A stretch of DNA of 64,000 nucleotides from Escherichia coli O157:H7 (GTDB lineage: Bacteria; Pseudomonadota; Gammaproteobacteria; Enterobacterales; Enterobacteriaceae), in NCBI RefSeq assembly GCF_013167455.1, contig NZ_CP038328.1. One strand, written 5' to 3'. The position numbers are program-made. Of the stretch, positions 3,001-6,000 are shown piece after piece. How positions within the stretch are numbered: the stretch's first letter is position 1; each line of letters begins with the position of its first letter.

Positions 3001-6000
3001 GTTCATCAAGACGATATAACGCCACGCTAACCTCACCCTGAGCGCAAGTGCTTAAGTCGCGCTCCAGCGTCTGGCGCACCTCATCCCAGTTATTAAAACG
3101 CGTCTGGTTAAAACTGTTGAGATAGAGCTTAAAACTCTTCGACTCAATCAGATTTACGCTGGTGTAATCAAGTTCAACATGACCGACAGCGACCTGCGGC
3201 AAACCTTTCGCATTCAGCCAGGAAAGTTCATACAGCGTCCAGATATCCGTACCTTGAAAAGGCAGGTTATCCGCTTTCAGACCCAGCGGGTCGCGATTCA
3301 GGCTGCGTGGAACGCCTTGCAGTAGGCTGGCGTCATAGGTATCCCGGTAATCGGTTGATTTTCCAAGAGTCAGGCCCGCAAGTGCCTGATGGTTTGCATA
3401 AGAAGACATGTTTCACCGTCATAAACCAGATAAACTAAACGACAAGTGTATCTGGTTTAAGTGAAGAGAGAAATTAGTGGACGATTTGACCGCACAAGCC
3501 CTGAAAGATTTTACTGCACGCTACTGCGATGCGTGGCATGAAGAGCATAAAAGCTGGCCGTTAAGTGAGGAACTGTACGGCGTTCCTTCACCGTGCATTA
3601 TTTCAACTACTGAAGATGCCGTATACTGGCAACCCCAGCCGTTTACCGGGGAACAAAATGTAAACGCGGTTGAACGCGCTTTTGATATTGTGATACAACC
3701 CACAATTCATACCTTTTATACGACTCAGTTTGCCGGGGATATGCACGCGCAGTTTGGCGATATCAAACTGACATTGCTGCAAACCTGGAGTGAAGACGAC
3801 TTCCGTCGGGTGCAGGAAAATCTGATTGGTCATCTGGTGACTCAGAAAAGGCTAAAACTGCCACCCACGCTATTTATCGCGACGCTGGAAGAAGAGTTAG
3901 AGGTCATCTCGGTGTGTAATCTCTCCGGTGAAGTGTGTAAAGAGACGCTGGGAACACGTAAACGGACGCATTTAGCCCCAAATCTTGCGGAATTCCTTAA
4001 TCAACTTAAGCCTCTTCTGTAATCCAAATACCCCATCTGGTTGTGAGAGATCTCTTACAGACTCTGTAGGAGATCGCCAGGAAATAAGCGAATACTTAAA
4101 AAGATAAGAATCGTTATTTTCATTTAAAAACAACATGTTGCTTGTTAATTCCTAACTTTCATATGAAATTTTCCTTAAGGCATTGTCTGTAAGCGCCTTG
4201 TAAGAGTTCGCGAAAAAGACGATTCTATCTTCGTCGACAGGGAGTCAGACAACGAAGTGAACATCAGGATGATGACACTTCTGAAGGACACACCAGGATG
4301 GTGTTTCAGGGAAAGGCTTCTGGATGAAGCGAAGAGGATGACGCAGGACGCGTTAAAGGACACCTCCAGGATGGAGAATGAGAACCGGTCAGGATGATTC
4401 GGTGGGTCAGGAAGGCCTGGGACACTTCAGGATGAAGTATCACATCGGGGTGGTGTGAGCAGGAAGCAATAGTTCAGGATGAACGATTGGCCGCATGGCC
4501 AGAGGAAAAGTTGTCAAGGATGAGCAGGGAGCAACAAAAGTAGCTGGAATGCTGCGAAACGAACCGGGAGCACTGTGAATACAGTGCTCCCTTTTTTTAT
4601 TCCTGCTATCCTTCGCGGCAGTTTTTCTTATTGAGGTTGCTTTATGACCACTCATGACCGCGTTCGTCTCCAGTTGCAGGCGCTTGAAGCGTTACTGCGT
4701 GAACATCAGCACTGGCGAAACGATGAACCCCAGCCGCATCAATTTAATAGTACCCAACCGTTCTTTATGGACACCATGGAACCACTGGAGTGGTTGCAGT
4801 GGGTGCTGATCCCGCGAATGCACGATTTGTTAAATAACAACCAGCCGTTACCGGGCGCTTTTGCCGTTGCACCCTATTATGAAATGGCGCTGGCGACGGA
4901 CCATCCGCAACGCGCGCTTATTCTGGCTGAGTTGGAAAAACTGGATGCTCTTTTTGCGGATGATGCGAGCTAATGCTGGAAATACTCTATCAGGATGAAT
5001 GGCTGGTTGCGGTAAATAAACCCTCCGGCTGGCTGGTTCACCGTAGCTGGCTGGATCGCGACGAGAAAGTAGTGGTCATGCAAACCGTGCGTGACCAGAT
5101 AGGCCAGCATGTTTTTACTGCTCATCGTCTGGACCGACCCACTTCTGGTGTGTTGTTGATGGGATTATCCAGCGAGGCCGGACGGCTGCTGGCACAACAG
5201 TTTGAACAGCACCAAATCCAGAAACGTTACCATGCGATTGTGCGCGGCTGGTTGATGGAAGAAGCGGTGCTGGATTATCCACTGGTGGAAGAACTGGACA
5301 AAATCGCTGATAAATTTGCCCGCGAAGATAAAGGCCCGCAGCCAGCAGTGACGCATTATCGCGGTCTGGCGACCGTAGAAATGCCGGTAGCGACCGGACG
5401 TTACCCGACCACGCGCTACGGCCTGGTGGAACTGGAGCCGAAAACCGGACGCAAACATCAGCTTCGCCGACATCTTGCCCATTTGCGTCATCCGATTATT
5501 GGCGATAGCAAACATGGCGATTTACGCCAGAATCGCAGCGGTGCTGAGCATTTTGGTCTTCAGCGGTTAATGCTGCATGCCAGTCAGTTGTCATTGACGC
5601 ATCCTTTTACTGGTGAGCCGCTGACTATTCACGCGGGCCTGGACGACACCTGGATGCAGGCGTTATCACAATTTGGCTGGCGCGGTCTGCTTCCTGAAAA
5701 TGAAAGGGTTGAGTTCAGTGCGCCATCGGGTCAGGATGGAGAGAGAAGTTCCTAATCCAGGGAGAAAACGGTATGGCGGAAATTGGTATTTTTGTCGGCA
5801 CCATGTACGGAAATTCGCTGTTAGTGGCGGAAGAAGCAGAAGCAATTCTGACCGCACAGGGCCACAAAGCAACGGTATTTGAAGATCCTGAATTAAGCGA
5901 CTGGCTGCCCTATCAGGATAAGTATGTTCTGGTGGTTACGTCCACGACCGGGCAGGGCGACCTTCCTGATAGCATTGTGCCGCTCTTTCAGGGAATCAAA

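What the first reader, a model, noticed from the sequence alone, without database searches (positions are those of the whole stretch)
3420..3465. Perfect 10-bp inverted repeat in the queF / syd divergent promoter region
aaaccagata and tatctggttt flank about 20 nt in the 67-bp gap between the divergently transcribed queF and syd starts. This is a plausible shared operator or a 5'-UTR hairpin for either gene.
Basis: seen in the sequence. Interest (0 to 1): 0.25.

Follow-up and report, generated by a model that had tools for sequence, protein, structure and literature searches.

The report
Facing promoter boxes between queF and syd
The inverted repeat is real, but what evolution has kept is a pair of promoter "-10" boxes pointing in opposite directions, so it is most likely the overlapping core promoters of queF and syd, an ordinary kind of bacterial control region.

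Summary
The repeat exists. It has perfect 11-bp arms, TAAACCAGATA at 3422-3432 and TATCTGGTTTA at 3449-3459, 16 nt apart. Inward it extends to 15-nt arms with one mismatch and an 8-nt loop. It lies in the 67-bp gap between queF (- strand) and syd (+ strand) of E. coli and is far beyond chance.

Ninety-six orthologous regions from Enterobacterales show that the long arms are not the conserved part. They are perfect only in E. coli and strongly symmetric only in Escherichia, Salmonella and Citrobacter.

What is conserved is the inner end of each arm: a TAnAnT hexamer with G at -14. One reads towards syd (TAAACT, 3431-3436). The other reads towards queF (TACACT on the - strand, 3450-3445).
- The distance between the hexamers varies from 6 to 16 bp across families.
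- Substitutions keep the -10 pattern, not the complementarity.
- The queF-side hexamer is missing where queF is not next to syd, and the syd-side hexamer is missing where syd lies 352 bp away.
- There is no covariation, no consensus RNA structure and no Rfam match.

Best reading: two overlapping divergent sigma-70-type core promoters (confidence about 0.6). No transcription-start data could be retrieved. A shared operator or a 5'-UTR hairpin is not supported, though not excluded for E. coli itself. Interest is low.

The parts
3422..3432 (.). Left arm of the perfect inverted repeat (TAAACCAGATA). In the promoter model it covers positions -21 to -11 of the syd promoter and also the early transcribed region of queF.
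   Evidence: The outer part is conserved only in Escherichia, Salmonella and Citrobacter.
3449..3459 (.). Right arm of the perfect inverted repeat (TATCTGGTTTA). In the promoter model it covers positions -21 to -11 of the queF promoter (read on the - strand) and also the early transcribed region of syd.
   Evidence: E. albertii and E. whittamii have TATCCGGTTTA, and other genera have TATCCTGG... with one extra base.
3431..3436 (+). TAAACT, the predicted -10 hexamer of the syd promoter, with G at -14 (G3429).
   Evidence: A TAnAnT hexamer is present at the homologous position in 78 of 81 sequences, with G at -14 in 77 of 78. It lies 40-42 nt from the syd start in 74 of 78. Dickeya, which has no adjacent queF, keeps it as GGGATAAAAT 41 nt from syd. 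It is the best-scoring -10/-35 combination upstream of syd on the + strand. The function is inferred, not shown.
3445..3450 (-). TACACT on the - strand (AGTGTA on +), the predicted -10 hexamer of the queF promoter, with G at -14 (complement of C3452).
   Evidence: Present in 78 of 81 sequences of the first set, with G at -14 in 76 of 78. Present with G at -14 in all 12 outgroup genomes where queF is adjacent. Absent in the 3 genomes where queF is not adjacent. Total promoter-matrix score 5.67, within about the top 1% of window positions. The function is inferred.
3437..3444 (.). Variable 8-nt spacer between the two hexamers (AAACGACA). The predicted transcription starts lie in it or at its edges: syd about 3442-3445 (+), queF about 3436-3440 (-).
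   Evidence: The sequence is not conserved, and its length is 7-10 nt in the first set and 6-16 nt in other families. The start sites are predicted from the usual 6-9 nt distance between a -10 hexamer and the start. They were not measured.
3407..3417 (-). queF start codon (ATG, 3409-3407) and the purine-rich ribosome-binding stretch GGTGA (3417-3413). Its + strand sequence also holds the weak predicted -35 of the syd promoter (ATGTTT, 3408-3413, 17-bp spacer).
   Evidence: CATGTTTCA is conserved in at least 90% of sequences.
3463..3479 (+). syd ribosome-binding stretch GAAGAGAG (3463-3470) and GTG start codon (3477-3479). The - strand holds the weak predicted -35 of the queF promoter (TTCTCT, 3472-3467, 16-bp spacer).
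   Evidence: AGAGAGAAA is conserved in at least 90% of sequences.
2561..3409 (-). queF (NADPH-dependent 7-cyano-7-deazaguanine reductase).
3477..4022 (+). syd (SecY-interacting protein).

Best explanation
The inverted repeat is the place where the core promoters of queF and syd overlap.

The inner end of each arm carries a -10-type hexamer (TAnAnT) with a G at -14:
- TAAACT (3431-3436, + strand) drives transcription rightwards into syd.
- TACACT (3450-3445, - strand) drives transcription leftwards into queF.

The hexamers face each other across 8 bp. Each transcript should therefore start just before the other promoter's hexamer: syd at about 3442-3445 and queF at about 3436-3440. That gives ordinary leaders of about 30-35 nt. 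Each arm of the repeat is at once the spacer of one promoter and the first transcribed bases of the other.

The TAnAnT pattern is its own reverse complement. Two such boxes in opposite orientation automatically form a short inverted repeat. In Escherichia, Salmonella and Citrobacter the flanking bases have also become symmetric, and in E. coli perfectly so. I regard that extension as a lineage-specific and probably neutral by-product. Template-switch 'correction' of a quasi-palindrome during replication is one possible source.

RNA polymerase bound in one orientation would exclude binding in the other.

Shown: the anatomy, the conservation pattern, and the way each hexamer follows its own gene. 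Inferred: that the hexamers are used by RNA polymerase, the start sites, the sigma factor, and any competition between the two promoters.
For: 1. In 78 of 81 orthologous gaps (E. coli plus 80 Enterobacterales species), TAnAnT-N7-10-AnTnTA lies at the homologous position. The four defining bases of each hexamer are the only invariant columns of the core. G at -14 is present in 77/78 (syd side) and 76/78 (queF side).

2. The variants are TACACT, TAAACT, TAGACT, TACAAT and TAGAAT. Changes fall on the weakly constrained -10 and -8 positions and occur independently in the two arms. They often break complementarity: 23 of 78 combinations at the -10-position pair are mismatches or G-T, and TACAAT faces AGTGTA or AGTTTA in Atlantibacter, Yersinia, Serratia, Rahnella and Hafnia.

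3. The distance between the hexamers is 8 or 9 bp in 76 of the 78 sequences that carry the pair. It is 6-7 bp in Yersinia and Serratia, 14 in Rahnella, 15 in Hafnia and 16 in Budvicia.

4. Each hexamer follows its own gene.
- All 12 outgroup genomes with queF adjacent have a - strand TA(A/C)ACT with G at -14. It lies 34-37 nt from the queF ATG in Pectobacterium, Brenneria and Yersinia, as in Enterobacteriaceae.
- The three genomes where syd is not next to queF (Dickeya, Musicola, Photorhabdus) have no - strand TAnAnT at all upstream of syd.
- Dickeya keeps GGGATAAAAT 41 nt from the syd start, the same distance as in E. coli.
- In Xenorhabdus the gap is 352 bp. The queF-side box (TGATACACT, a full extended -10) stays 47 nt from queF, and the facing box is gone.

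5. The predicted leaders (about 28-35 nt) and the conserved purine-rich ribosome-binding stretches fit ordinary mRNAs.

6. With a rough sigma-70 matrix, these hexamers give the best promoter candidate upstream of syd and one of the two best upstream of queF.

7. Overlapping divergent promoters built on -10 symmetry are common in E. coli. They account for 19% of detected RNAs, with divergent start sites most often 18, 10 or 23 bp apart (PMC12825309).
Against: No measured transcription start site or RNA polymerase footprint for this gap could be retrieved. Every supplement I could open was truncated or silent.

Both predicted -35 hexamers are poor (2/6 and 3/6 matches). The tool's stricter consensus scan reports no promoter in 3100-3800.

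The loose pattern TAnAnT-N6-10-AnTnTA occurs 6 times in the window against 4.4 expected. In a single genome it means nothing, and the case rests wholly on conservation.

Conservation goes beyond what a generic -10 needs: CAGG upstream of both hexamers and C at -8 in most Enterobacteriaceae. That leaves room for an extra constraint such as a bound protein.

The predicted distance between the two start sites (about 5 bp) is not one of the common bidirectional geometries.

The strong symmetry in Escherichia, Salmonella and Citrobacter (z -3 to -5) is explained only as a by-product.
Confidence: 0.6

Rival explanations
1. The palindrome is a shared operator. A dimeric regulator, not yet identified, binds it and controls queF and syd together. 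It might also overlap the two -10 boxes, as the biotin operator does between bioA and bioB.
For: The dyad symmetry is highly significant in E. coli and strong in Salmonella and Citrobacter. Conservation extends a few bases beyond the hexamers on both sides (CAGG / CCTG). The element sits exactly where a repressor would block both promoters. Known bidirectional promoters often carry such sites (acrA/acrR, bioA/bioB, soxS/soxR).
Against: The half-site spacing is not fixed: 6 to 16 bp across families, and 8 or 9 bp within Enterobacteriaceae. In most genera the two arms are out of register by one base, CAGG-TACACT against CAGGATACACT. Substitutions preserve TAnAnT rather than symmetry. Each half is lost alone when its gene moves away. 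The window holds no further copy of the arm beyond chance. No paper in the searchable library links a regulator to this gap.
Confidence: 0.12
2. The repeat acts as an RNA stem-loop in the 5' leader of queF and/or syd. It would stabilise the mRNA or modulate translation, with transcription starting upstream of the whole repeat, inside the neighbouring gene.
For: The predicted hairpin is stable in E. coli on both strands (-15.3 and -15.7 kcal/mol for the 46-nt core, z about -4.7). The T-to-C change at the position of 3453 in E. albertii and E. whittamii would be a G-U pair in the queF-sense RNA.
Against: RNAalifold finds no consensus pair across 61 distinct sequences. For the E. coli hairpin, paired cells (62.3%) and covariation score are reached by 84 and 80 of 500 shuffles, and the seven outermost pairs are unpaired in about half or more of the sequences. 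Median fold z across the family is only about -0.9 to -1.0. No Rfam family, including preQ1 riboswitches, matches even at E up to 10. It is not terminator-like. No good promoter candidate lies upstream of the repeat on either strand. The stem does not cover either ribosome-binding site.
Confidence: 0.08
3. The hexamers are promoters as in the main explanation, but the long perfect arms in E. coli have a function of their own at the DNA level. Examples would be cruciform extrusion or supercoiling-sensitive coupling of the two promoters.
For: The 67-bp gap is at least 99% identical (exact, on my reading) in 5387 of 5425 E. coli genomes. Several changes in the Escherichia right arm (one deletion and C-to-T, T-to-A substitutions) all increase complementarity to the left arm.
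Against: Near-identity within a species is expected for any 67-bp stretch. The sister species E. albertii and E. whittamii already carry a mismatch. An AT-rich 11-bp stem with a 16-nt loop extrudes poorly as a cruciform (general knowledge, not tested here). One natural isolate has lost the whole left arm.
Confidence: 0.08

Closest known systems
Bacterial bidirectional promoters built on -10 element symmetry (Warman et al. 2021, Nat Microbiol; Warman et al. 2026, NAR, PMC12825309)
   Same: There are two -10 elements on opposite strands within a few base pairs, between divergent genes. They produce two mRNAs from one short pseudo-symmetric DNA stretch, and binding of RNA polymerase in the two orientations is mutually exclusive.
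   Different: The common geometries place the divergent start sites 18, 10 or 23 bp apart. Here the hexamers face each other across 8 bp, which predicts starts only about 5 bp apart, so each -10 lies inside the other's transcribed region. Transcription in either direction has not been shown here.
The bioA / bioBFCD control region of E. coli (overlapping divergent promoters within the palindromic bioO operator bound by BirA)
   Same: It is a short gap between divergent genes, with both -10 regions inside an imperfect palindrome. bioA/bioB is listed among bidirectional promoters. The operator details come from my own knowledge.
   Different: bioO has a known repressor and fixed half-site spacing. 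Here no regulator is known, the spacing drifts from 6 to 16 bp, and the E. coli arm (TAAACC-N26-GGTTTA) resembles the bioO half-site (TGTAAACC-N16-GGTTTACA, from memory) only superficially and with the wrong spacing.
Quasi-palindrome 'correction' by template switching during replication (Ripley model; thyA hotspot work in E. coli; recalled from memory, not checked here)
   Same: In one lineage (Escherichia), a cluster of changes confined to one arm turns an imperfect inverted repeat into a perfect one.
   Different: This is only a possible origin of the perfect arms. Not all Escherichia-specific changes increase complementarity, and no test was possible.
preQ1 riboswitches (queuosine-pathway leaders)
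   Same: It would be a small structured element next to a queuosine biosynthesis gene.
   Different: No Rfam match was found at E up to 10. The E. coli preQ1-I type III riboswitch is associated with yhhQ, not queF (PMC10622847). There is no conserved structure.

Membership tests
Bidirectional (overlapping divergent) sigma-70 promoter | Two -10-type hexamers on opposite strands, overlapping or within a few bp of each other | tested here: met
   TAAACT (3431-3436, +) and TACACT (3450-3445, -). The pair is conserved in 78 of 81 orthologous gaps, with G at -14.
Bidirectional (overlapping divergent) sigma-70 promoter | Primary transcripts start on both strands within about 25 bp of each other | not testable with these tools
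   No start-site data could be retrieved. Predicted starts are at 3442-3445 (+) and 3436-3440 (-).
Bidirectional (overlapping divergent) sigma-70 promoter | Preferred geometry: divergent starts 18, 10 or 23 bp apart | tested here: not met
   With hexamers 8 bp apart and 7 nt from hexamer to start, the predicted distance is about 5 bp (my arithmetic; geometry). The source says small variations occur.
Bidirectional (overlapping divergent) sigma-70 promoter | Recognisable -35 elements or a full extended -10 (TGn) | tested here: inconclusive
   The -35 candidates match only 2/6 and 3/6, and the strict scan finds none. G(-14) is conserved, but T(-15) is present only in Yersinia and Xenorhabdus.
Palindromic operator of a dimeric transcription factor | Two half-sites in dyad symmetry at a fixed spacing, conserved as a unit | tested here: not met
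   Spacing is 6-16 bp across families, the register is off by 1 bp in most genera, and the halves are lost independently.
Palindromic operator of a dimeric transcription factor | A cognate protein binds it | not testable with these tools
   No regulator is reported in the searchable literature.
Structured cis-regulatory RNA (5'-UTR hairpin or riboswitch) | Base pairs maintained by compensatory changes across relatives | tested here: not met
   84/500 and 80/500 shuffles reach the observed values; 0 consensus pairs.
Structured cis-regulatory RNA (5'-UTR hairpin or riboswitch) | Match to a described RNA family | tested here: not met
   No Rfam 15 match in 2400-5000 at E up to 10 other than CsrB and chance hits elsewhere. 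The whole window at gathering score gives only CsrB and sok.
Intrinsic terminator | G+C-rich stem followed by a run of T | tested here: not met
   The scan of 3100-3800 reports nothing at 3420-3465. The stem is A+T-rich with no T run.
Dispersed repeat (REP/BIME-type or mobile-element end) | Multiple copies per genome | tested here: not met
   There is exactly one place per genome in 5425 E. coli genomes, and no further copy in the window beyond chance.

The most novel reading that the evidence does not exclude
The pseudo-symmetric element could be more than two promoters. It could be a coupling device that ties queuosine tRNA modification (queF) to quality control of the SecY translocon (syd). 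This could work through a still unknown regulator that recognises the extended palindrome in Escherichia, Salmonella and Citrobacter. It could also work through obligatory competition of RNA polymerase for two -10 boxes in an unusual 'crossed' geometry, with starts about 5 bp apart. The pairing of queuosine genes with Sec genes occurs twice in E. coli: queF-syd here, and the queA-tgt-yajC-secDF operon (the latter from my own knowledge). The queF-syd arrangement holds in most Enterobacterales sampled.
Probability: 0.1. Interest if true: 0.45.

Novelty: new member of a known kind. Interest (0 to 1): 0.17.

Why it matters
If the reading is right, the finding is a textbook-style example. A striking perfect palindrome between divergent genes can be a by-product of two -10 boxes facing each other, rather than an operator or a hairpin. 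Comparative data, namely spacing drift, independent substitutions and independent loss of each half, can tell these apart without experiments. It also gives exact, testable promoter and start-site predictions for two E. coli genes whose transcription control I could not find described. It adds a bidirectional promoter whose geometry lies outside the common 18, 10 and 23 bp classes. The practical importance is small.

Tried and rejected
- **Rfam.** I scanned the region at E up to 10, and the whole window at gathering score. Nothing matched at the repeat, so a preQ1 riboswitch or any known RNA is rejected.
- **Terminator and strict promoter scans.** There was no terminator at the repeat and no strict sigma-70 consensus match.
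- **RNA hairpin.** I tested it with pair counts and RNAalifold on 61 distinct sequences. It got no support.
- **Published start sites or regulators.**
  - Ten full-text searches and 15 supplement look-ups gave nothing usable. Sources tried included the Cappable-seq paper, Kim 2012, the ROSE paper, Conway 2014, Cho 2014, a Salmonella ChIP-exo paper, the Rend-seq annotation paper and Warman 2026.
  - Files were absent, truncated before this genome position, or silent.
  - Thomason 2015 and Warman 2021 are not held.
- **Known binding motifs, recalled from memory.** I considered LexA, CRP, HipB, NrdR, BirA/bioO, PhoP, Zur, DnaA, sigma-54, sigma-E and sigma-32. None fits in orientation or spacing. 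The GGTTTA that resembles a PhoP half-site is Escherichia-specific.
- **A reported sigma-32 ChIP-chip signal at yqcD (queF).** By my coordinate conversion it lies about 470 bp inside the gene, and it was not reproduced. It is irrelevant to the gap.
- **An alternative queF promoter** (TATGAC at 3423-3418 with TTGTCG as -35). Rejected because it would give an almost leaderless mRNA and neither hexamer is conserved.
- **First search with E. coli Syd.** It returned only close relatives and was of no use for outgroups. A second search with Yersinia Syd was needed.
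Full report
**What is there.** The window is Escherichia coli. The 301 bases around the finding match 5425 of 5426 complete E. 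coli genomes, 100% in O157:H7 strains, and the annotation under the match is queF and syd.
- queF runs on the - strand from 3409 to 2561. syd runs on the + strand from a GTG at 3477 to 4022. The gap is 3410-3476, 67 bp.
- The gap is identical in K-12 MG1655, where it is 2925281-2925347.
- The inverted repeat is real. The perfect arms are 11 bp, TAAACCAGATA at 3422-3432 and TATCTGGTTTA at 3449-3459, 16 nt apart. Inward the symmetry continues to 15-nt arms with one mismatch and an 8-nt centre.
- Shuffles give 0.26 such repeats per 64 kb. The gap folds far better than shuffled sequence on both strands, with z of -4.1 and -5.1.

**What it is not.**
- Rfam has nothing at the repeat even at E up to 10. 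The only strong RNA nearby is CsrB at 4242-4601.
- It is not terminator-like.
- It is single-copy in every E. coli genome, and the arm sequence does not recur in the window beyond chance.
- The E. coli preQ1 riboswitch described in the literature belongs to yhhQ, not queF (PMC10622847).

**Comparative anatomy in Enterobacteriaceae.**
- I fetched 80 loci from different species through QueF. All have syd divergent from queF, and 77 of the 80 gaps are 64-72 bp.
- The long arms are not what is conserved. The outer part (AAACCAGA / TCTGGTTT) is perfect only in E. coli. E. albertii and E. whittamii already have a mismatch. Salmonella and Citrobacter keep a bulged, interrupted version. Most other genera have unrelated sequence there.
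- Fold z-scores tell the same story: -3 to -5 in Escherichia, Salmonella and Citrobacter, and a median of about -0.9 to -1.0 across 62 distinct gaps.
- The conserved part is the inner end of each arm. In 78 of 81 sequences, TAnAnT on the + strand is followed after 7-10 nt by AnTnTA, which is TAnAnT on the - strand.
- In an alignment of the 61 distinct cores, the only invariant columns are those eight bases. That alignment was cut out using the pattern itself, so the independent figures are 78/81 and the pattern-free alignment.
- The base at -14 relative to each hexamer is G in 77/78 and 76/78 sequences.

**How the hexamers vary.**
- The syd-side hexamer is TACACT (48), TAAACT (17), TAGACT (9) or TACAAT (4). 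The queF-side hexamer, read on its own strand, is TACACT (46), TAAACT (29), TACAAT (2) or TAGAAT (1).
- All changes fall on the third and fifth positions. These are the weakly constrained -10 and -8 positions of a sigma-70 -10 element (established knowledge).
- The changes occur independently in the two arms. At the third-position pair, 50 of 78 combinations are Watson-Crick, 6 are G-T and 22 are mismatches.
- Formal tests agree. For the E. coli hairpin drawn on the alignment, paired cells and covariation are reached by 84 and 80 of 500 column shuffles. RNAalifold predicts no consensus pair at all.
- Selection has therefore kept two -10-like boxes, not their complementarity. The pattern TAnAnT is its own reverse complement, so two such boxes in opposite orientation necessarily look like a short inverted repeat.

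**Outgroups: each box follows its own gene.** Through Syd homologues I fetched eleven more loci.
- Where queF and syd are adjacent, the pair persists but its spacing drifts: 6-7 bp in Yersinia and Serratia, 14 in Rahnella, 15 in Hafnia, 16 in Budvicia (TATAAT ... AGTGTA).
- Extra DNA in the gap lies on the syd side in Yersinia and on the queF side in Serratia, Erwinia and Mixta.
- In all 12 outgroup genomes with queF adjacent there is a - strand TA(A/C)ACT with G at -14. It lies 34-37 nt from the queF ATG in Pectobacterium, Brenneria and Yersinia, as in Enterobacteriaceae. It is a full TGn extended -10 in Yersinia pseudotuberculosis and Xenorhabdus.
- In Dickeya, Musicola and Photorhabdus, syd is not next to queF: in Dickeya and Musicola it sits next to ppnN, and in Photorhabdus neither queF nor ppnN was called in the flank. 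No - strand TAnAnT remains upstream of syd in any of the three.
- Dickeya still has GGGATAAAAT 41 nt from the syd start, the E. coli distance.
- Conversely, in Xenorhabdus syd is 352 bp away. The queF-side box stays 47 nt from queF, and the facing box is gone.
- This independent gain and loss is what two separate promoter elements predict. It is not what a dimer-binding operator or a stem-loop predicts.

**Mechanism proposed.**
- TAAACT (3431-3436) would be the -10 of the syd promoter, and TACACT (3450-3445, - strand) the -10 of the queF promoter. Each has G at -14 and only a weak -35: ATGTTT at 17 bp and TTCTCT at 16 bp.
- Starts 6-9 nt downstream give syd a leader from about 3442-3445 and queF a leader from about 3436-3440. 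Both are about 30-35 nt, and both end in conserved purine-rich ribosome-binding stretches.
- Neither mRNA would then contain both arms, so no hairpin would form.
- The arrangement belongs to the class of bidirectional promoters that arise from -10 symmetry. That class is reported to produce 19% of E. coli RNAs, with divergent starts most often 18, 10 or 23 bp apart (PMC12825309).
- Here the facing hexamers are 8 bp apart. That predicts about 5 bp between starts, a less common geometry.
- Polymerase bound one way should exclude the other. Whether that matters for two weak promoters is unknown.

**Why the arms are so perfect in E. coli.**
- Each arm is both the spacer of one promoter and the first transcribed bases of the other, so both arms are under similar mild constraints.
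- Compared with Salmonella and Citrobacter, the Escherichia right arm carries a one-base deletion and several substitutions within 12 nt. Most of them increase complementarity to an unchanged left arm.
- That pattern resembles template-switch correction of quasi-palindromes. This is my recollection of the literature and was not tested. I rate it as a plausible origin, not a conclusion.

**Limits.**
- I could not obtain any measured start site, polymerase footprint or regulator for this gap. Literature and supplement quotas were exhausted without a hit.
- The -35 elements are poor, and the strict scan finds no promoter.
- In a single genome the facing-hexamer pattern is not significant: 6 found in the window against 4.4 expected.
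- Conservation of CAGG next to both hexamers and of C at -8 in Enterobacteriaceae is more than a generic -10 requires. A protein that binds here, at least in the Escherichia, Salmonella and Citrobacter clade, is not excluded.
- I put the dual-promoter reading at about 0.6, an operator at about 0.12, an RNA hairpin at about 0.08, and an independent DNA-level role of the perfect arms at about 0.08.

**Verdict.** The element is most likely an ordinary, previously undescribed example of overlapping divergent promoters. Interest is low (0.17). Novelty: new member of a known kind.

Noticed in passing
window 3401-3435 (strain FDN-9, locus L093): One of 5425 E. coli genomes (chicken isolate FDN-9, NZ_CP158140.1) has a clean 35-bp deletion. 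It removes the queF start codon and ribosome-binding site, the whole left arm, and five of the six bases of the syd-side hexamer. queF is annotated there with a shorter reading frame. It is a natural mutant that could be used to test the promoter model.
   Followed up: partly
window 4242-4601 (+): The CsrB small RNA lies just downstream of syd (382.6 bits). The perfect 11-bp inverted repeat at 4566-4591 falls near its 3' end, where its terminator hairpin would be expected.
   Followed up: partly
window 30694-30733: This is the longest perfect inverted repeat in the window: 16-bp arms (AGAAAGGTAACTTCCC / GGGAAGTTACCTTTCT) and an 8-nt loop, followed by a run of T. It looks like a strong intrinsic terminator in an intergenic region. 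There is no Rfam match. A second 11-bp repeat lies at 30480-30519.
   Followed up: partly
window 43582-43738 (+): There is an Rfam match to the sok antitoxin RNA (105.3 bits), which indicates a hok/sok-type toxin-antitoxin locus in the window.
   Followed up: no
loci L085, L092 (Dickeya, Musicola) and L089 (Photorhabdus): queF is missing from the otherwise conserved ppnN-queF-syd-(csrB)-yqcC-truC neighbourhood. In Dickeya and Musicola, syd sits next to ppnN across 260-265 bp. In Photorhabdus neither queF nor ppnN was called in the flank. I did not determine where queF went.
   Followed up: partly
loci L080 (Erwinia), L074 (Mixta), L076/L082 (Yersinia), L083 (Serratia): The longer gaps contain inserted G+C-rich short hairpins, for example TCCGGAGGCGCTCCGGG in Erwinia and ATGCCGCGTCAGGCAT in Yersinia nurmii. 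They lie on one side or the other of the hexamer pair. They may be small repeat elements or leader structures.
   Followed up: no
window 2561-4022 and all related loci: A queuosine-pathway gene is paired with a Sec-translocon-related gene (queF-syd) in most Enterobacterales sampled. E. coli also has queA-tgt in one operon with yajC-secDF (the latter from my own knowledge). This may be coincidence or a functional link.
   Followed up: no
inside queF (about 470 bp downstream of its start, by my coordinate conversion): A sigma-32 ChIP-chip target assigned to yqcD (queF) in a 2006 study was not reproduced in a re-examination (PMC2996942).
   Followed up: no
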